DNA from: Bacteroidota bacterium
GTDB taxonomy: Bacteria > Bacteroidota > Ignavibacteria > Ignavibacteriales > Ignavibacteriaceae
NCBI GenBank assembly: GCA_020161395.1
Contig: JAIUOE010000014.1
Span: 18,746 to 82,745, forward strand
Length of the DNA stretch: 64,000 nucleotides
Direction: 5' to 3'
A model generated the notes under the pieces. That model had not been told where the DNA came from. It saw nothing but the letters and a program-made list of their open reading frames with translations, and ran no database searches. Made by a program: the position numbers and the translations under genes. Within the stretch, counting starts at the first letter, position 1. Each line of letters opens with the position of its first letter. Shown here piece by piece: positions 22,026-31,436 of the stretch.

Positions 22026-23387
22026 TCAGTTTGTCAAACTTCTAACAGGAGCGGGTATCCTTCCACCTCTCCCGAAGAAAACATCGGCGCTTAAAACCTT
22101 CACGGGCATTATCGGGGCTTTACCCAGCAATCCACCGTAATCAACCGACTCACCGACACTTTTGCCATAAGCCGGTATAAGCCGGCAGGCAGTCGTTTTT
22201 TCATTTATCAAACCGATGGCTGCCTCATCTGCTATGATTCCTGCAATGGTGTTCACAGGTGTATCACCGGGAATAGCGACCATGTCGAGTCCAACTGAAC
22301 AAACTGCTGTCATCGCTTCAAGTTTTTCGATAGTCAGATGTCCCTTTTCGGCAGCAGAAATCATCCCCTGGTCTTCACTCACAGGAATAAAAGCTCCGCT
22401 CAATCCGCCAACGGAAGAACTTGCCATAAGTCCCCCCTTTTTCACACTGTCATTCAGCATGGCGAGTGCTGCGGTGGTTCCGGGGGCACCGACATCTTCC
22501 AAACCGATCTCTTTCAGAATATCTGCAATACTGTCACCTTCTGCAGGAGTTGGTGCAAGGGAAATATCGACAATACCAAATTCCACACCATCTTTTTCAG
22601 CAACTTTTCTCCCGACCAGTTCACCGGCACGCGTAATTTTGAAGGCTGTTTTCTTGATAACTTCTGCGATATCCTGAATTGAAGCCCCTTTGTGTCCCTT
22701 TAGTGCCTCAAGAACCACTCCGGGACCACTTACTCCGACATTTAGTGTTGCATCTCCTTCGGTTATTCCATGGAATGCACCCGCAATGAAAGGATTGTCT
22801 TCAACCGCATTGCAGAAAACCACAAGCTTTGCACAGCCAATCGAGAATTTTTCTCTCGTTATGTAAGCCGTCTCTTTAATCACCTGTGCCATCAGTTTTA
22901 CGGCGTCGATATTGATTCCGGCTTTTGTTGACCCGATATTAACGCTCGAGCATACTTTTTTTGTGGTCGCAAGTGCCTGTGGAATGGATAGAATGAAATT
23001 TTTCTCACCCGGAGTCATCCCTTTCTGAACCAAAGCAGAATATCCGCCGATGTAATCGATCCCTATCTCCATAGCAGCCCTGTCCATAGCTTCTGCTATC
23101 TTCACATACTCTTCAGATGAAAAACTGTCACCAATAAAAGAAACGGGAGTAACCGCCACCCTCTTGTTTGCAATCCTCAACCCATAGGCAGCTTCGACCG
23201 ATTCGGCATTCCTCACATGATTCCCTGCCAGACGGGTAATCTTTTCATAAATCTTTTGTGTAACCACATTGATGTTCCTGTCGCTGCAGTCCCTCAAATT
23301 GATACCCATAGTGACAGTCCTGATGTCGAAATGTTCGACCTCACTCATCATGATGGTTTCTAATATCTCAGAAAATTCAAAATTCAT
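22026..23387 (-). CDS. UPF0210 / PFL-family (DUF711) protein
   Basis: The N-terminus [27 protein letters not shown] and the ~450-aa length are characteristic of UPF0210. It is paired with an upstream ACT gene, as in many genomes. Confidence 0.8.
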
Positions 23388-23492: not shown

Positions 23493-23908
23493 ATCCTGAA
23501 CATATACTGAAAAATATCCTCGTGCTGGGCATAGATTTTCACATTAAGTTCGGCTGCAACTTTGGCAAGCTCCTCCTGAATTTCCTTCAGGTTTTTCGGC
23601 GAACTGGTGATGTCAATGATCATGATAAGAGTATAGAAATTTTGCATGATCTTCTGTGAAATATCCTGGAGATCTATTTCCATGGATGCGAGAGAGCCGG
23701 TAATTTTGGCAACAATTCCGGGTTTGTTCACTCCAAAAGAAGTAACTATTACCCTTCCCTCAAATTTTTCCTGAGAGCCGGGCGCTACATTCATAGAAGC
23801 AATTTCTTTTTCAACATAATCTCTTACCATATCGGGACTCGCATTTGCGCCCAATACATCTATTGCCTTGTTGGTTATTTCCCAAATCAACTGTTCTGAA
23901 ATCTTCAA
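23489..23908 (-). CDS. ACT domain-containing protein (UPF0237-like) with N-terminal extension
   Basis: ACT fold signature RVIVTSFGVNKPGIVAKITGSLASMEIDLQDISQ. It lies upstream of the UPF0210 gene. Confidence 0.7.
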   Translation of the reverse strand: MKISEQLIWEITNKAIDVLGANASPDMVRDYVEKEIASMNVAPGSQEKFEGRVIVTSFGVNKPGIVAKITGSLASMEIDLQDISQKIMQNFYTLIMIIDITSSPKNLKEIQEELAKVAAELNVKIYAQHEDIFQYMFRI

Positions 23909-24744
23909 GGTTTTAGTCCTCTGTAATTAAATTGTAAAAATCGTAAATTCTCATTTTTTATTTCAAGGTTTCGGCGGTTTATATAATCAATTGTGTTCGA
24001 AATGTTGCCTCTGTAAAAACGAAACAGCACAAAATTGGCTTCAATAAGTGCATCGAAAAATCGCTCTGCCTTAAGGGCATCAACCACAAGATATACCCCA
24101 AATGCCACCCACCCCAATGAAAGGGCAGCATTTATATATTCACCGGCATACGCCTGACCTGCTCCCGGAATCAGAACCGAGAGAAGCAATCCCTTCGTTA
24201 GAGAAAGACTCCTCTCCTCCGCTGAATCACACAAAGCTGTCAAAAAACCTGATGAATCCGACAGTTCGAAGTGGTGCTTCGCCTCCTGCCAGTTACCCTC
24301 AAAAGCAAACCGCCACCCTTTCCAGTGCAGGAACGCGCTTTTTTTATCCGGGAAAACCTTTTCAAGAACGGCTATTCTGTCATCAAATTTTTTGAATTTT
24401 CTTTCCAGAATCAGCAACCTGAGTATTTCCTGCTCCGCTGAAATTGACTCATCCCTGTTCTTCCCGGCAACAGCCGCCATCTCAAAGGCGACTTTAGCTT
24501 CGGAGTATCTGCCCGTTGCTCTCAAAGCATACCCGGATATCATGTTTGATTCGAATCCAAACCGTCCGGAAGTGTCAAACAATTTTAATCTCTCGGCTTC
24601 GATGTATGCTTCAAGATATTTTTCAACCTTTAGCAGCGAATCGGCATAACCAAGTTGGCTTGCAAAATCGTTTGCCTGCCCATTTGTTACTTTTGACAAT
24701 GTCAAAAATAACAAGAATTGAAGAAACAATGACCTTAAAATCAC
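23905..24744 (-). CDS. secreted TPR-like protein with C-terminal membrane hairpin (paralogue A)
   Basis: Signal peptide, TPR-like helices, then LLLSVLIPGAGQAYAGEYINAALSLGWVAFGVYLVV. It overlaps both neighbouring genes by 4 nt. Confidence 0.5.
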   Translation of the reverse strand: MILRSLFLQFLLFLTLSKVTNGQANDFASQLGYADSLLKVEKYLEAYIEAERLKLFDTSGRFGFESNMISGYALRATGRYSEAKVAFEMAAVAGKNRDESISAEQEILRLLILERKFKKFDDRIAVLEKVFPDKKSAFLHWKGWRFAFEGNWQEAKHHFELSDSSGFLTALCDSAEERSLSLTKGLLLSVLIPGAGQAYAGEYINAALSLGWVAFGVYLVVDALKAERFFDALIEANFVLFRFYRGNISNTIDYINRRNLEIKNENLRFLQFNYRGLKP

Positions 24745-25565
24745 TCTCTCTCCAGAATCTTTTCCGCCGGTTTCAACGGTTTTTTACCGTAGTAGAAGTC
24801 AAAAAACTCCTTTTCCCTCATTTCCTTCTCATTCTGATTATATAAAGAAGCCGACACTATTGACCCGTAGATATTGCCGCCCTGGAAAAAGGCGGTAATC
24901 AAACCGAAAATAAATCCCCGCTGCATATATCCGTCTTTGAAATTTGAGTATGTCAGATATCCAAAAATACCGGTCAGAAGAAGACTCGCGGCGGCATCTC
25001 CGTATTCTCCGGTATAAACCCGACCCAAACCCGGGACAATTGCTGACAAAATTCCGGTAAACAAGGGTGATTTCGTTTTTGGGTCAATCCTTCGTTCAAG
25101 GTTGCTCAAGAGGAAATTTGACCCGTCCTCCCCAAACAGGTAAATGTTGTTCCTGTCCTCCTCATCAAAAATCCCCCGCTGAATATCAGTGAGAATCTTC
25201 AACTTCAAATAGTTTATCGAAAGGGAGCTGTCATTTACGATCTCAGGCAGTTTTACAGTTGTCCCGGCTCTGCCAGCCTCAAATTTCTCTTTATCGATGG
25301 CGTATGTTAAATGCGCCCTGAACGGCGACAAAAAATGTGAATCGTATTCACCCCGCTTAATCCGGGATAAATCGATGTAAAATTTTGAGGTGTCATTAAA
25401 AGAAGGAGTGGTTGAAAGCCGGTTAAATTCAATCTCCGCCTTGTCATAAAAGCCAAGGTCAAAAAGATGTTTGCTGAATTTATAAATGTTTTCAGGAGTG
25501 TGAAGCGAATTTTGTGCACAAACGGGAAATATCAGCAAAAAGAGCAGAATCGCTAATTTATTCAA
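24741..25565 (-). CDS. secreted TPR-like protein with C-terminal membrane hairpin (paralogue B)
   Basis: Signal peptide MNKLAILLFLLIFPVCAQ. C-terminal ILSAIVPGLGRVYTGEYGDAAASLLLTGIFGYLTY is clearly homologous to the block in paralogue A. Confidence 0.5.
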   Translation of the reverse strand: MNKLAILLFLLIFPVCAQNSLHTPENIYKFSKHLFDLGFYDKAEIEFNRLSTTPSFNDTSKFYIDLSRIKRGEYDSHFLSPFRAHLTYAIDKEKFEAGRAGTTVKLPEIVNDSSLSINYLKLKILTDIQRGIFDEEDRNNIYLFGEDGSNFLLSNLERRIDPKTKSPLFTGILSAIVPGLGRVYTGEYGDAAASLLLTGIFGYLTYSNFKDGYMQRGFIFGLITAFFQGGNIYGSIVSASLYNQNEKEMREKEFFDFYYGKKPLKPAEKILERE

Positions 25566-25566
25566 T

Positions 25567-25959
25567 TTATTTCCGTTTTATGTAACGGGATGGGGGGTCA
25601 ATCAGGTAACCATATTTGTCAATGTGGTAATGCTTGTATTTATTGTCGAAACTTGTGTCCCTGATCAACCTGTCGGATGTCAACAACACAGCCTCAACTA
25701 TATTTGTTTCTCCGAGTGCCTCGACAAAAAACCTTGAACAACTCGGGGAAAAGGGACAATTCTCGCCATCAGGTTCCGAAATAAAAAGGCGATATCCATT
25801 TACCAAAACTCTAAACACAACTTCAGGAACATCGCCTTTTATTTCATAATATTTCTTCTTTACAGGTATCTCTTCGGCATAATCAACCCTGACCGCCTCC
25901 CATGACTGCCCGTAAATAACTCCACAAAACAGCCAAACAAAAACTATCAGCCGGTTCAT
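25567..25959 (-). CDS. YidD-like (DUF37, membrane protein insertion efficiency factor family) protein with signal peptide and extensions
   Basis: GYRLFISEPDGENCPFSPSCSRFFVEALGE matches the YidD core Y..iSP....C.f.PtCS.y. At 130 aa it is longer than canonical YidD, and it is not next to rnpA/yidC here. Confidence 0.6.
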   Translation of the reverse strand: MNRLIVFVWLFCGVIYGQSWEAVRVDYAEEIPVKKKYYEIKGDVPEVVFRVLVNGYRLFISEPDGENCPFSPSCSRFFVEALGETNIVEAVLLTSDRLIRDTSFDNKYKHYHIDKYGYLIDPPSRYIKRK

Positions 25960-25992: not shown

Positions 25993-27129
25993 TTTAAGCA
26001 GTTCTCTCGCAATAACCACCCGCTGAATTTCGGAAGTGCCTTCATAGATTTCGGTGATCTTGGCATCTCTGAGGTATCTTTCAACGAGGTATTCGCGAAC
26101 ATAGCCGTAACCGCCGTGAATCTGAATGGCTTCGAGAGAGCAGTCAACAGCGGCTTTAGAGGCGTAAAGTTTCGCCATTGCAGCCTGTTTTGTGTAGTCT
26201 TTTCCGGCATCCTTCAGGGCTGCAGCTTCAAGAATGAGAAGTTTTGCTGCTTCAACCTGTACCGCCATGTCAGCAATTTTGAATTGAATTGCCTGATGAT
26301 TTTTAATTTCGGTACCGAAGGCTTTTCTCTGTTTCGAATATTTGATTGATGCTTCGAGCGATGCCTCGGCTATACCGAGAGCCTGAGCTGCGATACCAAT
26401 TCTTCCGCCATTGAGGGTTTTCATTGCAAAATTGAAACCTTTCCCCTCTTCCCAGACGATGTTTTCGTGAGGGACACGGCAGTTGGTAAATGTTAGGGAA
26501 CAGGTATCTGAAGAGCGAATTCCAAGTTTGTCCTCTTTTTTCGCCTGTTCAAATCCGGGAGTTCCTTTTTCGACGAGGAAAGTCGTGATTCCTTTATGCC
26601 GCAATTCCCTGTTGGTTTGAGCCATCACGAGGTAGTAATCGGCAGTTTTTCCGTTGGTGATCCAGTTTTTAATACCGTTAATCACCCAGTGATCGCCGTC
26701 TCTCACCGCCTCGGTATGCTGATTAGTTGCGTCACTTCCCGCTTCGGGTTCAGAGAGTGCGAAGGCTCCGAGCTTTTCTCCCGTTGCGAGCGGTTTCAGG
26801 TATTTCTCCTTTATAAAATCGGAACCGTATTGCTCCAATCCCCAGCATACCAGAGAATTGTTCACTGACATAACTACACCGACACTCGCATCCACCTTCG
26901 ACACTTCAGCCATTGCAAGAACATAGCTCACGGTATCAAGTCCGGCACCACCGTATTCAGGTGACACCATCATCCCCATGAAACCAAGTTCACCAAGCTC
27001 CTTAATAATGTCATGAGGGAATTCTGCGTTAATATCCCTTTCAACAGCACTCGGAGCAATTTTTTCCTGTGCAAACTCTCTTGCAGTCTGCTGAATCATT
27101 AACTGTTCTTCAGTCAATTCAAAATTCAT
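25990..27129 (-). CDS. acyl-CoA dehydrogenase (short/butyryl-chain type)
   Basis: MNFELTEEQLMIQQTAREFA N-terminus, ALSEPEAGSD, and C-terminal QIHGGYGYVREYLVERYLRDAKITEIYEGTSEIQ. I chose the start at M10; the track ORF starts at 27156. Confidence 0.9.
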   Translation of the reverse strand: MNFELTEEQLMIQQTAREFAQEKIAPSAVERDINAEFPHDIIKELGELGFMGMMVSPEYGGAGLDTVSYVLAMAEVSKVDASVGVVMSVNNSLVCWGLEQYGSDFIKEKYLKPLATGEKLGAFALSEPEAGSDATNQHTEAVRDGDHWVINGIKNWITNGKTADYYLVMAQTNRELRHKGITTFLVEKGTPGFEQAKKEDKLGIRSSDTCSLTFTNCRVPHENIVWEEGKGFNFAMKTLNGGRIGIAAQALGIAEASLEASIKYSKQRKAFGTEIKNHQAIQFKIADMAVQVEAAKLLILEAAALKDAGKDYTKQAAMAKLYASKAAVDCSLEAIQIHGGYGYVREYLVERYLRDAKITEIYEGTSEIQRVVIARELLK

Positions 27130-27247
27130 GTAAAATCCTTTTTGTTTGATCTCCAAAAAATATCCGTCTGCAAAAATAGTAAAAAAAGGTTAGATATGGT
27201 GAGTTGCTTCCATTCTACTTCTTCCAAGAAGACAAATAGAATCGACC

Positions 27248-27922
27248 TCATCTCTCTCTGTATTTTAACAATTCCTCCACCAGCAAAAAAACAGTCGTTG
27301 ATGATTCTTTTTGAGCAGGGTTGTTATGATCGAATTTATCAATTATCTTTTTTGCTCTTTCAATAGCTTGACTTACTCTGATCTCTCCTGTGCCCGGATC
27401 AATTGAATCCAAGATTTCAAAGAAGCTTTCAGAAATCAATTTAGTTCCTTTATAATCGTATTCAACTCCCATCCGGGAAAGAAACTTAGTAATCTTCGGT
27501 CCATAATCAGTCCGGTCAAGTTTTGAGCCATTGTGGTCAAGAAAATGTAATAGCAACCAGTATTCAAATGCCTGATTTGAATACGCAACATTTATTTTGT
27601 TTCTCAGGGCAAGTTGAAAAGCCAAATTAAAATCATTATCACTGAATTCATCCTTATCAAAAACTATCCAATATTCATCAAAGTCAAAATCTTTCTTAAG
27701 TTTTATTAATTGTCTTGTTAGAGTCAACGGATCCTTACCATCGTACGAAATGGTAACATTTGCAAGCCTGAACTTTCTGAAGTAACTTGGTTCAGTGTTT
27801 TTCCCGCCACAATAAATATAGATTGTTTTCTTTTCCTGAATTGAGAAAGTTTTTCTATTATAGATTAGTTTTCTTCCGGATTTTTCAGTTTTTCCCGTAT
27901 TTTTATTCATATTAATGAACAC
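27248..27922 (-). CDS. RloB-family (Toprim-like) protein, partner of the upstream ATPase
   Basis: Three RloB hallmark blocks: IYCGGKNTEPSYF, WIVFDKDEF (acidic Toprim-like) and VAYSNQAFEYWLLLHF. Its start overlaps the ATPase gene end by 11 nt. Confidence 0.75.
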   Translation of the reverse strand: MFINMNKNTGKTEKSGRKLIYNRKTFSIQEKKTIYIYCGGKNTEPSYFRKFRLANVTISYDGKDPLTLTRQLIKLKKDFDFDEYWIVFDKDEFSDNDFNLAFQLALRNKINVAYSNQAFEYWLLLHFLDHNGSKLDRTDYGPKITKFLSRMGVEYDYKGTKLISESFFEILDSIDPGTGEIRVSQAIERAKKIIDKFDHNNPAQKESSTTVFLLVEELLKYRER

Positions 27923-29213
27923 TTCCTGAAAGATCAGACAATCTCAAATCATCAAACTCATCCAAAAACGGCATGCCACCATATCTTCCTTCCAGGTAAT
28001 CAATTTCAAATTTATCAGTTCGCCTTACTTTTATTTCGACAAGCGAATATAGTTTGGAGACTTCAAATCTGTTTTTTTCAACAAACCAGATCTGATCCCG
28101 TCGAAACATATCAGAGCTAAGCAAATGAGTACTCTGTGTATTAAATATCAATTGCGCATTTCCCGGATTTGTCGAAGCAGAATTGAAAAGTTGTGCTATT
28201 TTCAAGACAAGTTTTGGATGCAATTTAGAATCCAGTTCGTCAACAAAAAGAATTGATCCTGTTTCGAGTGCCTCTATTATCGGTCCGGCGAGAGCAAAAA
28301 ATTTCTTTGTACCCGAAGATTCATCTGAATCCATCGAAAAAGTTACTCTTTCGCTCTGTTTTTTACCATTTTTATATTTTTTATGAACGGTTTTTACTTC
28401 GTAAAAAAGATCAAGATCATTCTTTAATTTACTTTTGTACTCTTCACTATTAAATGAATCACTCTGTCCCAAGGAAGATGATGGTGTAAGATAGATGTCT
28501 GTAATACCCATATCGGCTGCATAAAGAAAATTCAAAACTTTCATTTTCCTTTCCTCATCAGTAATCATCGATAAAGTGTAATTGATAAAGGAATCTTCGG
28601 TCAATCCGGAAAATATTTTCAGTCTCTTAAACCATCCCAGAATTTCGAGAGCAAGTTCTTCATTAAAGGTGGCTGCCACAGTGATACATAATGCACTTTC
28701 CCTGACAAAGCCCCCTCTTATAATACTTTTACCTCGCTTAAAAAGTGAGCGGTGCAGTTTAAAATTATCACCCTTTCGGAAATATATTTCCATCTCTTTT
28801 TTGTGAGATCTCATATACAACCATTCAGTGATGACTTTGCCCGGGAGCAGAGTAAAACCATAGCGATAGATTTTATTGTTCGAAAGGAAGACAACCTCAA
28901 ACTCGGATGGCAATTGCTCTGTCTCTGTATCCAATTTGAAAGAGATTTCACTATTAAGACTTGACATCAAAGAAAGCTCCATAGATCTCAGCAAATATTC
29001 CTGCATAAAACCCAGTGCTTCAAATAATTTGCTTTTTCCGGAGGCATTCGCACCATATACTACTGAAGATTTCAACACTCTCAGATCAAAACCGGGTATG
29101 TGAACAACATTTTCAGATTCACGGGTCTCTTTATCATAATTTGCCGCGACCTGACTAAAAACAGTTTTATCTCTGAATGTCTTAAAATTCTTTATTGTGA
29201 ATTCTATTAACAT
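27912..29213 (-). CDS. AAA_21/ABC-type ATPase (AbiLi / OLD N-terminal-like)
   Basis: FTIKNFKTF...YGANASGKSKLFEA (Walker A), ILFVDELDSKLHPKL (Walker B/D-loop), IFNTQSTHLL (H-loop). Confidence 0.8.
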   Translation of the reverse strand: MLIEFTIKNFKTFRDKTVFSQVAANYDKETRESENVVHIPGFDLRVLKSSVVYGANASGKSKLFEALGFMQEYLLRSMELSLMSSLNSEISFKLDTETEQLPSEFEVVFLSNNKIYRYGFTLLPGKVITEWLYMRSHKKEMEIYFRKGDNFKLHRSLFKRGKSIIRGGFVRESALCITVAATFNEELALEILGWFKRLKIFSGLTEDSFINYTLSMITDEERKMKVLNFLYAADMGITDIYLTPSSSLGQSDSFNSEEYKSKLKNDLDLFYEVKTVHKKYKNGKKQSERVTFSMDSDESSGTKKFFALAGPIIEALETGSILFVDELDSKLHPKLVLKIAQLFNSASTNPGNAQLIFNTQSTHLLSSDMFRRDQIWFVEKNRFEVSKLYSLVEIKVRRTDKFEIDYLEGRYGGMPFLDEFDDLRLSDLSGSVH

Positions 29214-29227
29214 AATTATCTATCTTT

Positions 29228-29272
29228 TTGTAAATTTATTGCAAATATTGCAATAATTTTGCAAACATGCAA
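29228..29272 (-). promoter_or_regulatory. array of TTGCAA-type hexamers in the promoter region of the ATPase/RloB operon (candidate operator)
   Basis: TTGTAA 29228-33, TTGCAA 29239-44, TTGCAA 29248-53, TTGCAA 29259-64, ATGCAA 29267-72. Spacing is 8-11 bp, and the array lies 15-60 nt upstream of the ATG at 29213. Confidence 0.4.
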
Positions 29273-29430
29273 CATTTTTTTTAATTATCCTAAATTCCGA
29301 TCTTGACAACTACCGCTTTTTTGTCTTTTGTCGGATTTCATCAGAAGCCCCCATAAAAATTATTCCTCTTCATTTCCCCTCCATTTTGGTTAAATTCACG
29401 GGTTAAATATTCTCTTTTTTCAGGAAAATT

Positions 29431-30084
29431 ATGGACATTATTCTTTATTTGTTCGACTTTATTTTGCATGTGGATGTACATCTGGGTGAGTTGATCAGAG
29501 ATTATGGTGCTTTGACTTACGGCATTTTGTTTTTAATTATTTTTTGTGAGACGGGCCTGGTGGTCACTCCGTTTTTACCGGGTGACTCGTTGCTTTTTGC
29601 TGCAGGAGCTTTTGGAGCGAAAGGTGATCTCGACCCCCATCTGGTGTTTTTGATTCTGGCAGTTGCAGCTTTTCTCGGTGACTCGGTAAATTATTATATC
29701 GGGAAAAAGATTGGTCACCGGGCATATACGATGAACAGCCGGTTTATCAAAAAGGAACATCTGCAGAAAACACATCAGTTTTTCGAAAAACATGGCGGAA
29801 AAACGATCATTTTTGCTCGGTTTTTCCCCATCATCAGAACTTTCGCTCCGTTTGTTGCTGGAATTGGTGAGATGGAATATAAAAAGTTTATTTCATACAA
29901 TGCTGTGGGTGGTGTGCTTTGGGTTGCCATTTTTGTGTATCTCGGATATTTTTTCGGTAACCTTCCCTTCGTAAAACAAAATTTTACGATCGTTTTAGTC
30001 GCTATTGTTGTGATTTCACTGGCACCGGCAATCATCGGAGTTATTAAGAAATACACAAAACCGAAAGCTGAGCCCGAAGCTTAA
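29431..30084 (+). CDS. DedA-family membrane protein
   Basis: FLPGDSLLFAAGAF and FARFFPIIRTFAPFVAG motifs. About 5 TM segments. Confidence 0.85.
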   Translation: MDIILYLFDFILHVDVHLGELIRDYGALTYGILFLIIFCETGLVVTPFLPGDSLLFAAGAFGAKGDLDPHLVFLILAVAAFLGDSVNYYIGKKIGHRAYTMNSRFIKKEHLQKTHQFFEKHGGKTIIFARFFPIIRTFAPFVAGIGEMEYKKFISYNAVGGVLWVAIFVYLGYFFGNLPFVKQNFTIVLVAIVVISLAPAIIGVIKKYTKPKAEPEA

Positions 30085-30109
30085 TTCGGAATATATTAGT
30101 TTGATGTCT

Positions 30110-30142
30110 GGGATTTAACTAACCTGGTTAAATCCCTTTTTT
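30110..30142 (+). terminator. rho-independent terminator of dedA-family gene
   Basis: Perfect 9-bp stem GGGATTTAA / TTAAATCCC with a 9-nt loop, followed by TTTTTT. Confidence 0.75.
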
Positions 30143-30146
30143 ATAT

Positions 30147-30176
30147 AAAAAAAAGGCTGCCCTTTCGGAACAGCCT
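30147..30176 (-). terminator. rho-independent terminator of the Trp-rich repeat protein gene
   Basis: The minus strand reads GGCTG-TT-CC-GAAA-GG-G-CAGCC (GNRA-looped hairpin) followed by TTTTTTTT. Confidence 0.7.
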
Positions 30177-30200: not shown

Positions 30201-31436
30201 TTATCTTGTTTTTCTTTCCCTTGAGCCACCTGTCGAGCCGGAGCTGCCACGATCGGTGTTTCTGGGGGTTGTATCTTTCTTTGGAGTATCCCTGACGGTA
30301 TTGTCCCGTTTTGTATCTCTTGAAGAGCTTCCGCCGGTGTCACGGGTTACAGGTCTGTTGTCGTCCCTTTTCACTTCTCTCGTTGTGTTGTCACGGGTTA
30401 CAGGCTTGTTGTCATCTCTTTTTACTTCTCTGGAAGTGTTGCCACTATTGTCACGGGTTACAGGTCTGTTATCGTCTTTCTTTACATCTCTTGAAGTGCG
30501 GCTGCCATTATCACGGGTTACAGGTCTGTTGTCATTTCTTGTCACTTCTCTTGAGTCATCTTTTCTGTCGATATTCCTTGTACCGGTATTGTTCTTCACT
30601 TCCCTTGTGATTTCTCTTGCCGATTCATCAACTTTGTCAGATCTCAGGTCGCCATTGTTTCTGGTTCTTGTGATTTCCACTTTTTCATCGTTTCTGTCGG
30701 CACCTCTGTTAAGGTCAATATTCCTTACTTTTACATTTCCATCCGATCTGTTGTTGCCGCGGTCTTTAGCGTTTGTGAAATCAAGATCTCTCGTTTTTAC
30801 ATTGCCACCACCTCTTTTTTCAACGATTCTTGGATCGATTCCTTCATTTACCACGCGGTCGCGATATTTGTAGTTTGAGAATGATTTTGTTCTCTCGTAG
30901 CACCTGTCAGCACCATATCCGGTGAAGTAGTAATCGTATATATTATGTCTGTGGAAGTCTCTGATCCTTACGAATCTCCAGTGGTGAACAGGAATCACGA
31001 TGTTGATCGAGAAAGAGATTCCGTAGTTTGGACTGAAGATTGCGTATGGTGACAATGGAGCCCATCCAATGTAGTCATCATCATATCTCCATTCTACCCA
31101 TGCAGGAGCCCACTCATATCCGGGAACCCATACCCAGCCTTCCCAGTTGTCGTAGTACCATCTTCCATAGTGAAAAACTATGTCGCCAAACGCTTCGTCT
31201 GAATCCCAGAACCAACCATAGCTGGTGTAGACCCATCTGCCGTAAGTGTAAGGCTGCCAGTTTGAATTTACTCTTGAGGGTTTCCAGACGACGACATTAT
31301 CTATCTCCATCCAGTAACCGTAAGATCTAAGTTCTTTATGGAAGGCGTTGAACCTTCCACGGTTGAAGCTGTTATCAGCATTTGCGTTAAATGCCAAAGC
31401 TGCAAAAACCAAAACTGCAAATAATATCCGTTTCAT
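30201..31436 (-). CDS. secreted protein with N-terminal Trp/Tyr/Gly-rich domain and C-terminal R/D/N/T-rich tandem-repeat tail
   Basis: Signal peptide MKRILFAVLVFAALAFNANA. YGRWVYTSYGWFWDSD...GWVWVPGYEWAPAWVEWRY (WxxGxW-like repeats). The C-terminal third is low-complexity with ~20-aa repeats REVKRDDNRPVTRDN.... Confidence 0.6.
   Translation of the reverse strand: MKRILFAVLVFAALAFNANADNSFNRGRFNAFHKELRSYGYWMEIDNVVVWKPSRVNSNWQPYTYGRWVYTSYGWFWDSDEAFGDIVFHYGRWYYDNWEGWVWVPGYEWAPAWVEWRYDDDYIGWAPLSPYAIFSPNYGISFSINIVIPVHHWRFVRIRDFHRHNIYDYYFTGYGADRCYERTKSFSNYKYRDRVVNEGIDPRIVEKRGGGNVKTRDLDFTNAKDRGNNRSDGNVKVRNIDLNRGADRNDEKVEITRTRNNGDLRSDKVDESAREITREVKNNTGTRNIDRKDDSREVTRNDNRPVTRDNGSRTSRDVKKDDNRPVTRDNSGNTSREVKRDDNKPVTRDNTTREVKRDDNRPVTRDTGGSSSRDTKRDNTVRDTPKKDTTPRNTDRGSSGSTGGSRERKTR
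30321..30551 (-). repeat. in-frame ~60-bp tandem repeat (about 4 copies; one copy is 51 bp)
   Basis: TCACGGGTTACAGG(T/C)(C/T)TGTT recurs at roughly 30340, 30390, 30450 and 30510. It encodes the repeated peptide DDN(R/K)PVTRD(N/T). Confidence 0.85.

What the first reader, a model, noticed from the sequence alone, without database searches (positions are those of the whole stretch)
27248..29213. AT-rich two-gene islet: AAA_21-type ATPase translationally coupled to an RloB/Toprim-like protein (candidate defence module)
What the sequence shows:
- A 433-aa ORF carries an ABC/SMC-type Walker A (YGANASGKSKLFEA), Walker B/D-loop (ILFVDELDSKLHP) and H-loop (NTQSTHLL).
- Its last 11 nt overlap the start of a 224-aa ORF with the three RloB hallmark blocks (YCGGKNTEPSYF, WIVFDKDEF, YSNQAFEYWLLLHF).
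- Hand counts on single 60-nt lines give about 25-35% G+C inside the pair (lines at 28381 and 28141) against about 45% in the adjacent acyl-CoA dehydrogenase gene (line at 26401).
- The pair sits between two unrelated housekeeping genes (acd and dedA).

Established knowledge: an AAA_21 ATPase plus an RloB-like protein is the architecture of the lactococcal abortive-infection pair AbiLi/AbiLii. It amounts to an OLD-family nuclease (ATPase plus Toprim) split into two polypeptides. PARIS (AriA/AriB) and Gabija use the same ATPase-plus-Toprim logic.

Inference: this is a horizontally acquired anti-phage or anti-plasmid module. Its trigger and nucleic-acid target are unknown, and its divergence from characterised members cannot be judged without a search.
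Basis: partly seen in the sequence, partly recalled or inferred. Interest (0 to 1): 0.75.

Follow-up and report, generated by a model that had tools for sequence, protein, structure and literature searches.

The report
AbiL-type anti-phage gene pair
This is a two-gene anti-phage defence cassette of the already known AbiL type (an ATPase plus a small nuclease-like RloB protein), present as an AT-rich variable insert in an Ignavibacteria chromosome; it is an ordinary member of a very large family, and the only unusual point is that its middle section has been swapped between strains by recombination.

Summary
A 433-aa AAA_21 ABC-type ATPase (27912-29213, minus strand) is followed by an RloB protein (27248-27910). 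They are the two lowest-GC genes of 52 in the window. PADLOC models call them AbiLi (E 1e-89) and AbiLii (E 1e-29).

There are two corrections:
- The conserved RloB start is the ATG one base after the ATPase stop (220 aa), not the GTG that gives an 11-nt overlap.
- The canonical H-loop histidine position holds Gln (Q360), with a His at 363.

The host is an Ignavibacteriaceae bacterium. The nearest reference genome lacks the pair at this site and also lacks dedA. That genome carries a 54%-identical pair at another locus. None of 80 acd loci from reference genomes has the pair nearby.

Three independent metagenome contigs carry the cassette at this same site. Their flanks are 98-100% identical to the window, but a 1.2-1.5 kb interior tract differs by about 14% (dN/dS about 0.1). 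That pattern indicates allele exchange by recombination.

Homologous pairs also occur on plasmids and prophages. AbiL's mechanism is unsolved. By analogy with PARIS and P2 OLD, the best guess is an ATPase sensor that gates a Toprim-like nuclease.

Verdict: a new member of a known kind, of modest interest.

The parts
27912..29213 (-). abiLi-like gene: 433-aa ABC/SMC-type ATPase (AAA_21). Walker A at residues 54-61, signature ESSGT at 298-302, Walker B/D-loop DELD at 325-328, atypical H-loop Q360/H363.
   Evidence: ORF. Pfam AAA_21 2.8e-33. PADLOC AbiLi 1.2e-89. Invariant motif residues. AF2 model pLDDT 79.6, matching PtuA, Rad50 and SMC heads at E about 5e-8.
27248..27910 (-). abiLii-like gene: 220-aa RloB protein starting at the conserved ATG one base after the ATPase stop. 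It has a disordered, hypervariable N-terminal 25 residues, then a four-strand beta-alpha core carrying E40 and D85-x-D87, then a helical C-terminal half.
   Evidence: Pfam RloB 3.7e-39. PADLOC AbiLii 1.3e-29. Junction conservation. AF2 pLDDT 86.6 with secondary structure. Invariant residues. BFVD match to an RloB-like phage protein, TM 0.7.
27911..27922 (-). Gene junction. The ATPase stop TAA (27914-27912) is followed by one base and then the RloB ATG (27910). The alternative GTG start at 27922 would give the 11-nt overlap.
   Evidence: Sequence. Alignment of eight junctions. Gene calls in L089, L195, L196 and L081.
29214..29272 (-). Promoter/leader that travels with the cassette. It has a -33-like TTG (29270-29272), a Bacteroidota-type -7 box AATATTTG (29242-29249, starting at -36 from the ATG) and a TTTACAAAAA leader. 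It overlaps an 18-nt inverted repeat made of TTGCAA hexamers (29227-29244 / 29248-29265).
   Evidence: Inverted repeat. Conserved in homologues of 54-91% protein identity from unrelated contexts. In those contexts homology to the window starts at 29272. A TAnnTTTG box at a fixed -36/-37 occurs in Bacteroidota-type homologues. Promoter function is inferred.
27385..28928 (-). Divergent recombination tract: ATPase codons ~96-433 plus RloB codons 1-~176. It is about 14% different from the allele shared by L089, L195 and L196. In L195 the tract ends earlier, near 27700.
   Evidence: Mismatch maps and four-way site patterns. Fisher p = 5e-97. dN/dS 0.09-0.19 and dS about 0.55.
27186..30148 (.). The 2.96-kb segment that is absent from the nearest reference genome (L001). 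It contains RloB, the ATPase and dedA. It lies between the DUF6600 gene's terminator and the acd promoter.
   Evidence: Synteny by tblastn. blastn breakpoints. Junction alignment.
29431..30084 (+). dedA (VTT domain, 217 aa). It lies inside the indel relative to L001 but has host-like composition (GC 0.408, z = -0.75), and it is not linked to the cassette at any other locus.
   Evidence: Pfam VTT_dom 4.7e-28. GC. 99.7% identical in L195. No DedA found at any of the other cassette loci searched.
30149..30176 (-). Terminator-like stem-loop of the DUF6600 gene. It is conserved with L001 and marks one edge of the indel.
   Evidence: blastn 28/28 nt at 93%. Alignment.
27127..27185 (-). acd promoter/leader (CTATTTTTG ... 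GGAGATCAAACAAAAAGGA). It is conserved with L001 and marks the other edge of the indel.
   Evidence: blastn. Alignment.

Best explanation
The pair is a chromosomal AbiL-type, two-component anti-phage (abortive-infection or toxin-antitoxin-like) module.

What is shown:
- An AAA_21 ABC ATPase gene is followed, one base after its stop codon, by an RloB gene.
- Both have intact, family-invariant catalytic-type residues.
- Both evolve under purifying selection.
- The two genes travel together with their own roughly 60-bp promoter as a compact cassette.
- The cassette occupies different sites in different genomes and is also carried by plasmids and prophages.
- At this locus the cassette interior has been exchanged between strains by homologous recombination.

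What is inferred, by analogy with PARIS (AriA/AriB) and P2 OLD:
- The two proteins are made from one transcript in fixed proportion.
- An ATPase oligomer holds the RloB Toprim-like metal-dependent nuclease inactive.
- A phage-derived cue sensed by the ATPase, probably through the variable region between Walker A and the signature motif, releases or activates RloB.
- RloB then cuts a host or phage nucleic acid and stops the infection at the cost of cell growth.

The target is unknown. I favour tRNA or another RNA over DNA. Both characterised relatives are tRNases, and lactococcal AbiL is reported to act after phage transcription.
For: - Family: Pfam AAA_21 and RloB; PADLOC AbiLi 1.2e-89 and AbiLii 1.3e-29, far above any other defence model.
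- Architecture: RloB lies immediately downstream in 79 of 114 homologous loci, and a stop-N-ATG junction recurs in the close relatives.
- Integrity: invariant K60, D325/E326 and S299/G301 in the ATPase, and E40, D85/D87, E116 and H122 in RloB. dN/dS is 0.09-0.19.
- Fold: the ATPase model matches PtuA (Septu), the retron I-A ATPase, Rad50 and SMC heads. The RloB model has a four-strand beta-alpha core with E40 after strand 1 and DxD after strand 3.
- Mobility: lowest GC in the window. Absent at this site in L001 and in 80 acd loci. The L001 genome has a 54%-identical pair elsewhere. Related pairs occur on a conjugative Emticicia plasmid, among lambdoid prophage genes and between integrases.
- Literature: AbiL is a two-gene abortive-infection system grouped with ABC ATPase + TOPRIM systems (PMC13064643, PMC11464382). 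AAA antitoxin / TOPRIM_OLD toxin pairs were tested in toxicity-neutralisation assays, and RloB is linked to the same AAA node (PMC10440598). AriB and P2 OLD cleave tRNA (PMC11464382, PMC12409363, bioRxiv 10.64898/2026.07.10.737580).
Against: - No phenotype can be tested here.
- My own tests did not confirm that RloB is a Toprim/OLD-type nuclease. Foldseek against the PDB gave no hit at E <= 1e-3. hhalign against P2 Old gave probability 0.08%. Only 1 of 62 family members weakly touched a Pfam Toprim model. No PDB relative is detectable by sequence for either protein.
- RloB does not match PADLOC's AriB or GajA models, so the PARIS and OLD mechanisms are transferred by analogy only.
- The canonical H-loop His is Gln in this clade, so the ATPase cycle may differ from that of characterised relatives.
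- The cassette is solitary, not in a defence island. Its immediate neighbours are DedA, DUF6600, acd and YidD.
Confidence: 0.72

Rival explanations
1. Same family, different target. RloB acts as a DNA nickase or exonuclease on phage or plasmid DNA, as reported in vitro for OLD-family and GajA nucleases, rather than as an RNA/tRNA nuclease. Protection would then come from degrading invading DNA and need not be abortive.
For: The ATPase head resembles DNA-binding Rad50/SMC/RecF heads. Reviews group AbiL with Gabija and OLD, whose published in vitro substrates are DNA (bioRxiv 10.1101/2024.10.26.620412). The Toprim E...DxD chemistry is classically DNA-directed (established knowledge: Aravind, Leipe and Koonin 1998).
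Against: The two relatives whose in vivo targets are solved, AriB and P2 OLD, cleave tRNA and leave DNA intact. Lactococcal AbiL is tabulated as acting after transcription (PMC13064643). Nothing in the sequence decides the substrate.
Confidence: 0.25
2. A selfish toxin-antitoxin addiction module. It would persist because its loss kills the cell and would stabilise the DNA segment or plasmid it sits on, with no real role in phage defence.
For: NetFlax places AAA ATPase plus TOPRIM_OLD/RloB pairs inside the type II toxin-antitoxin network (PMC10440598). Homologous ATPases occupy a large share of 4.8-kb ColE1-type plasmids. The gene order with tight coupling is TA-like.
Against: The prototype AbiL gives phage resistance (Deng et al. 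1999, as cited in PMC13064643). TA behaviour and defence are not exclusive, since PARIS is both. Clean absence of the cassette in a close relative and allele turnover show it can be lost and replaced. The small plasmids carry a different 122-aa partner, not RloB.
Confidence: 0.1
3. An accessory pair of a restriction-modification system. RloA/RloB 'restriction-linked ORFs' were first described inside Campylobacter type I hsd loci, and here the pair would modulate an R-M enzyme encoded elsewhere.
For: The RloB family was named from R-M operons (PMC10440598). One distant homologous ATPase (L121) is followed by a DUF1156/methyltransferase-like gene.
Against: No hsd, methyltransferase or restriction gene lies in the flanks. 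Every flanking gene that has a counterpart in L001 is syntenic there and is of a housekeeping type. The cassette moves as two genes only.
Confidence: 0.03
4. A housekeeping RecF/RecR-like repair pair: an SMC-type ABC ATPase plus a small Toprim protein acting in recombinational repair.
For: The ATPase model matches RecF (5zwu) and Rad50 heads. RecR is a small Toprim protein (established knowledge).
Against: Distribution among close relatives is patchy. GC is an outlier. The genomic position varies, and the pair is carried by plasmids and prophages. The best family matches are AbiLi/AbiLii, and NCBIfam gives no RecF or RecR match.
Confidence: 0.02

Closest known systems
AbiL (AbiLi/AbiLii) of Lactococcus lactis plasmid pND861 (Deng, Liu and Dunn 1999), as modelled in PADLOC and DefenseFinder
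   Same: Two co-oriented genes. The first is an AAA_21/Rad50-like ABC ATPase and the second an RloB-family protein. Both PADLOC models match strongly. The module is compact, mobile and AT-rich.
   Different: Here it is chromosomal, in Ignavibacteriaceae (FCB group), not on a Firmicutes plasmid. It uses a Bacteroidota-type promoter and has an H-loop Q360/H363 variant. Identity to the lactococcal prototypes was not measured, because their sequences were not at hand. Phage resistance is untested.
PARIS (AriA ABC ATPase + AriB Toprim tRNase; OLD class 4)
   Same: It is a split ATPase + Toprim-type effector with TA-like logic. The AAA_21-based AriA model matches the ATPase (3.5e-32), and published trees place AbiL beside PARIS (PMC11464382).
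   Different: RloB does not match the AriB model. AbiLii and AriB show no significant sequence similarity, and their predicted structures superimpose poorly (PMC13064643). The trigger, stoichiometry and target of AbiL are unknown.
P2 Old and class 1/2 OLD nucleases (including Gabija GajA)
   Same: An ABC ATPase sensor is coupled to a Toprim-type effector. The Walker B to H-loop segment aligns with P2 Old.
   Different: In OLD the domains are fused in one polypeptide. Here they are split. No profile or fold match was found between RloB and the Old Toprim region in my tests. GajA matches only weakly and partially (9.4e-6), and there is no GajB helicase.
Septu PtuA/PtuB and the retron I-A PtuA-like ATPase
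   Same: These are the closest solved structures to the ATPase model (8ee4, 8sux, 9n69; E about 5e-8). They are also two-gene ATPase + nuclease modules.
   Different: The effector in Septu is an HNH nuclease, not RloB. PADLOC PtuA scores are low (1e-8 to 1e-10).
RloA/RloB 'restriction-linked ORFs' of Campylobacter type I R-M loci
   Same: The same Pfam family (RloB, PF13707) paired with an ATPase.
   Different: There are no R-M genes nearby here, so the cassette is free-standing.

Membership tests
AbiL defence system (PADLOC/DefenseFinder sense) | First gene encodes an AbiLi-type AAA_21 ABC ATPase | tested here: met
   PADLOC AbiLi 1.2e-89 (298.6 bits, next best 110.6). Pfam AAA_21 116.7 bits against a cut-off of 27.
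AbiL defence system (PADLOC/DefenseFinder sense) | Second gene encodes an AbiLii/RloB-family protein | tested here: met
   PADLOC AbiLii 1.3e-29. Pfam RloB 135.4 bits against a cut-off of 31.5, covering the full-length profile 1-195.
AbiL defence system (PADLOC/DefenseFinder sense) | The two genes are adjacent, co-oriented and operonic | tested here: met
   1-nt spacer (or 11-nt overlap) on the same strand. The arrangement recurs in 79 of 114 homologous loci.
AbiL defence system (PADLOC/DefenseFinder sense) | Confers phage resistance by abortive infection, with both genes required | not testable with these tools
   This needs expression and plaque or growth assays. It is known only for the lactococcal prototype (PMC13064643).
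AbiL defence system (PADLOC/DefenseFinder sense) | Direct pairwise similarity to the L. lactis AbiLi and AbiLii prototype sequences | not tested
Membership rests on the PADLOC family models.
OLD-family (ABC ATPase + Toprim) nucleases | ABC ATPase with Walker A, signature, Walker B, D-loop and H-loop | tested here: met
   All motifs are present and invariant. The H-loop is atypical, with Q at the canonical His position and a His three residues later.
OLD-family (ABC ATPase + Toprim) nucleases | Toprim catalytic domain (conserved Glu plus DxD on a four-strand beta-alpha fold) related to OLD Toprim | tested here: inconclusive
OLD-family (ABC ATPase + Toprim) nucleases | ATPase and Toprim fused in one polypeptide (classes 1-3) | tested here: not met
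   There are two separate ORFs with a stop codon between them.
PARIS | AriB-type (DUF4435/Toprim-OLD) effector next to AriA | tested here: not met
   RloB matches only AbiLii in PADLOC, with no AriB hit at E <= 0.01. The AriA hit is the generic AAA_21 profile.
Gabija | GajA (fused ATPase-Toprim) plus GajB UvrD-like helicase | tested here: not met
   Only a weak partial GajA hit (9.4e-6 over residues 320-408). No helicase gene is adjacent.
Septu | PtuA ATPase plus PtuB HNH nuclease | tested here: not met
   There is structural similarity to PtuA, but the partner is RloB and carries no HNH domain.
Type I R-M-linked RloAB | Embedded in an hsd (type I restriction-modification) operon | tested here: not met
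   The neighbours are DedA, DUF6600, Thioredoxin_9, acd and YidD.

The most novel reading that the evidence does not exclude
The interior of the cassette, from ATPase residue ~96 to the first ~80-176 residues of RloB, may behave as an exchangeable specificity module. Old, functional alleles (dS about 0.55, dN/dS about 0.1) would be swapped by homologous recombination within a fixed chromosomal slot. The anchors would be the conserved promoter plus the first 95 ATPase codons on one side and the RloB 3' end on the other. One allele has already spread across Ignavibacteriaceae backgrounds whose flanks differ by 15-25%. If so, natural chimeras like the window versus L195 versus L089 mark which segments set trigger recognition and which set cognate ATPase-RloB pairing. 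The Q360/H363 H-loop shift would mark a clade with an altered ATP-hydrolysis switch.
Probability: 0.3. Interest if true: 0.45.

Novelty: new member of a known kind. Interest (0 to 1): 0.3.

Why it matters
AbiL is a recognised but mechanistically unsolved member of the ABC-ATPase + Toprim group of defence systems, which also includes OLD, Gabija, PARIS and MADS. This locus adds little as a discovery, because PADLOC or DefenseFinder would annotate it automatically and the family has many thousands of members.

It has two modest uses:
- It is a clean example of a minimal self-contained cassette (promoter plus two genes) in Ignavibacteria, a phylum with almost no studied phage defence.
- The four natural haplotypes at one site form a ready-made set of chimeras with sharp breakpoints. 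Together with the Q360/H363 H-loop variant, they could guide domain-swap experiments on how AbiL senses infection and keeps RloB silent.

Tried and rejected
- PDB sequence searches with single sequences and with 62-sequence profiles found nothing for either protein.
- Foldseek of the RloB model against the PDB gave only generic alpha/beta folds (best E 2.4e-3). Against BFVD it matched only another RloB-like protein.
- hhalign of the RloB profile against P2 Old gave no relationship. The ATPase profile against P2 Old aligned only over the Walker B to H-loop segment.
- A permissive Pfam scan of 62 RloB members showed no recurrent Toprim families.
- NCBIfam gave no meaningful hit.
- I searched for an insertion mechanism and found none. 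The window has no tRNA genes and no Rfam match. No convincing flanking direct repeats appear. All flanking genes that have counterparts in L001 are syntenic there and none is an integrase or transposase.
- I considered dedA as a third component and rejected it. Its GC is host-like and it is not linked to the cassette at any other locus.
- I considered rapid positive selection as the cause of the divergent tract and rejected it, because dN/dS is 0.09-0.19.
- I looked for a second copy or paralogue in the window and found none.
- The TTGCAA inverted repeat upstream is only weakly palindromic in the 77%-identical homologue (my reading of the alignment). Its conservation may reflect promoter elements, not an operator.
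Full report
**1. Observation**

The window has two co-oriented minus-strand ORFs at 27912-29213 (433 aa) and 27248-27922 (224 aa from a GTG). In alignments with 61 homologues each, the following residues are invariant:
- ATPase: Walker A (G54, K60, S61), signature (S299, G301), Walker B with the catalytic Glu (D325, E326) and the D-loop (D328).
- RloB: E40, D85, D87, Y110, Q113, E116, W118 and H122.

The AT-richness is real and strong. RloB has GC 0.335 (z = -5.05) and the ATPase 0.359 (z = -3.66). They are the two lowest of 52 genes, against a mean of 0.421 (sd 0.017). The GC3 values are 0.312 and 0.327 against a mean of 0.425. acd is 0.459.

Two details need correcting.

First, the junction reads ...GTG TTC ATT AAT ATG... 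on the coding strand. The ATPase stop TAA is followed by one base and then an ATG at 27910. This stop-N-ATG arrangement recurs in five of the seven relatives aligned; L083 has a 2-nt spacer and L090 a TTG start. Gene callers use it there, giving 220 aa. The upstream GTG is not conserved. The 11-nt overlap is therefore probably an artefact of taking the longest ORF. Tight coupling remains plausible.

Second, the canonical H-loop histidine (aligned to 'sTHs' of P2 Old) is Gln360 here. The window's clade has Q360/H363 ('NTQSTHLL'), whereas 45 of 62 family members have H360 and 52 of 62 have N363 ('NTHDTNLL').

**2. Family assignment**

- Pfam gives AAA_21 (2.8e-33) and RloB (3.7e-39, full-length).
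- PADLOC gives AbiLi (1.2e-89, 298.6 bits, next best 110.6) and AbiLii (1.3e-29, the only hit).
- NCBIfam has nothing meaningful.
- PHROGs holds both families, with unknown function.
- The ATPase family is very large: 7,961 of the 8,000 candidates scored were significant, mostly Bacteroidota at about 50% identity.

**3. Host and insertion test**

The flanking acyl-CoA dehydrogenase is 93% identical to that of an Ignavibacteriaceae MAG (L001) and 81% identical to an Ignavibacterium album MAG.

In L001 the flanking genes are syntenic on both sides, but the DUF6600 gene sits about 300 bp from acd. The ATPase, RloB and also dedA are absent. Homology to L001 breaks at about window 30149, just after a conserved terminator-like hairpin. 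It resumes at about 27185, at the acd promoter/leader. The indel is therefore 2.96 kb and holds three genes.

dedA has host-like composition (GC 0.408, z = -0.75). It is 99.7% identical in a conspecific contig and is not linked to any other cassette locus. The foreign unit is therefore the two-gene cassette. Whether dedA was lost in L001 or arrived separately is unresolved.

None of the 80 reference-genome acd loci has the pair within 10 kb. The window has no tRNA genes and no Rfam match, and the flanks show no integrase or convincing direct repeats.

The same MAG as L001 carries a 54%-identical ATPase+RloB pair at another locus, next to a YoeB/YefM module.

**4. The cassette as a unit**

Closer homologues (56-77% protein identity) lie in unrelated contexts. 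Their DNA homology to the window spans only 29272-27254, which is about 59 bp of upstream sequence plus the two genes.

That upstream stretch is conserved even at 54% protein identity. It contains:
- a TTG at -59 to -57;
- AATATTTG starting at -36;
- a TTTACAAAAA leader.

Bacteroidota-type homologues keep a TAnnTTTG -7 box at a fixed -36/-37. I read this as a Bacteroidota-type promoter that travels with the genes. That reading is an inference.

An 18-nt inverted repeat of TTGCAA hexamers overlaps it (29227-29265). Its palindromic character is weaker in the 77%-identical homologue, so an operator role is uncertain.

RloB lies directly downstream of the ATPase in 79 of 114 homologous loci.

**5. 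Mosaic alleles**

Three independent assemblies carry the cassette at this same site: L089, L195 and L196.

- Against L195 (7,972 bp), the flanks are 99.3-99.8% identical over about 5 kb. There are no substitutions from the promoter through ATPase codon 95. The region 28928-~27700 differs at 171 of 1,229 positions (Fisher p = 5e-97).
- Against L089, the divergent tract runs from 28928 to 27385.
- Four-way comparison shows 170 sites where the window differs from all three others, and 50 sites where the window and L195 together differ from L089 and L196.
- L196 has flanks only 74-85% identical to the others, yet its interior is about 99% identical to L089 and L195.

At least three breakpoints exist, and one allele has recently crossed between diverged backgrounds.

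In the tract dS is about 0.55 and dN/dS is 0.09-0.19. These are old, functional alleles moved by recombination, not the product of rapid change in place. The disordered RloB N-terminus (residues 1-25, pLDDT below 50) is hypervariable.

Caveat: all four sequences may come from short-read assemblies. Strain switching within identical stretches could misjoin flanks and interiors. Even so, the alleles themselves must border on sequence identical to these flanks.

**6. Structure and relatives**

The AF2 model of the ATPase (pLDDT 79.6) matches PtuA of Septu (8ee4, 8sux), the retron I-A ATPase (9n69), Rad50 and SMC heads at E about 5e-8.

The RloB model (pLDDT 86.6) has a four-strand beta-alpha core, with E40 after strand 1 and D85-x-D87 after strand 3, followed by a helical half. 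This is the classical Toprim motif arrangement (established knowledge: Aravind, Leipe and Koonin 1998).

My tests did not recover the Toprim link:
- Foldseek against the PDB gave no hit at E <= 1e-3.
- BFVD matched only an RloB-like phage protein, TM 0.7.
- hhalign against P2 Old gave probability 0.08%.
- Pfam Toprim models do not recur across the family.
- No PDB relatives are detectable by sequence.

**7. Mobile-element carriage**

- Homologous ATPases occur in 191 plasmid records. One is a conjugative Emticicia plasmid carrying ATPase+RloB at 48% identity.
- Twenty IMG/VR contigs carry homologues. One pair lies among lambdoid O/P-like replication, methyltransferase and Q-antiterminator genes, and another lies between two integrases.

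**8. Mechanism**

The literature groups AbiL with split ABC-ATPase + TOPRIM systems, but no mechanism has been established (PMC13064643, PMC11464382, PMC12409363).

- In PARIS, an AriA hexamer sequesters AriB until a phage protein triggers its release, and AriB then cleaves tRNA-Lys.
- P2 OLD is reported to be a tRNase in a 2026 preprint.
- AAA antitoxin / TOPRIM_OLD toxin pairs were tested in toxicity-neutralisation assays in the NetFlax study, and RloB is linked to the same AAA node.

I therefore propose an ATPase-gated RloB nuclease with abortive outcome. I favour an RNA target, and a DNA target is the main rival. All of this is inferred.

**9. Comparison and verdict**

The locus meets every testable criterion for AbiL. 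It fails the criteria for PARIS (no AriB), Gabija (no fused GajA, no GajB), Septu (no HNH) and R-M-linked RloAB (no hsd genes).

It is a new member of a known kind. Interest is modest. The recombination mosaic and the H-loop variant are the only features a specialist might follow up.

Noticed in passing
window 30201-31436 (minus strand): The DUF6600 gene is only 92.6% identical to the conspecific contig L195, while everything around it is above 99%. Its C-terminal half is a run of degenerate (K/R)DDNRPVTRDN-type repeats that also cross-align out of register, so it looks like a repeat-driven hypervariable protein.
   Followed up: partly
L083 8001-9907; L086 1-9299: The MAG that lacks the cassette next to acd (the same assembly as L001) carries a 54%-identical ATPase+RloB pair at another locus, beside a YoeB/YefM module. 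At the equivalent locus in another assembly (L086) a 56%-identical ATPase has no RloB. It sits after a four-gene cluster (AAA_23, DUF87, and proteins of 1309 and 528 aa) that looks like a defence hotspot.
   Followed up: partly
L134, L143, L152, L153, L157, L163, L166 (ORF overlapping the ATPase stop); L198 1636-2004: A subclade of these ATPases (about 36% identical) is paired not with RloB but with an overlapping protein of about 150 aa that has no Pfam match (motif LIVLSFRDFDRNQGQ). Small ColE1-type enterobacterial plasmids pair the ATPase with a 122-aa hypothetical protein. The ATPase appears to swap effectors.
   Followed up: partly
upstream 120 nt of the ATPase in L113, L117, L118, L119, L126, L127, L129, L141, L168 (and GAGA-N5-TCTC in L116, L123, L124): A GTGA-N5-TCAC palindrome lies between a sigma-70-type promoter and the start codon in 9 of 89 distinct upstream regions (0.47 expected, maximum 4 in 500 shuffles). 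It is confined to one ATPase subclade. It looks like an operator, and its binding protein is unknown.
   Followed up: partly
window 28126-28134 (ATPase residues 360-363): In the Ignavibacteria-type clade the H-loop histidine is shifted: Q360 plus H363, against H360 plus N363 in most of the family. A few members have Q360/N363 with no histidine at either position.
   Followed up: partly
L121 2860-3999: One distant ATPase homologue is followed by a DUF1156/N6-adenine-methyltransferase-like gene instead of RloB. This hints at a link to a methylation-based system in that lineage.
   Followed up: no
window 23905-25959 (minus strand): Downstream of acd lie a YidD-like gene and two adjacent paralogous genes of about 275 aa. 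These evolve much faster between the window and L001 (47-63% identity) than acd (93%) or the next gene at 22026-23387 (95%).
   Followed up: no
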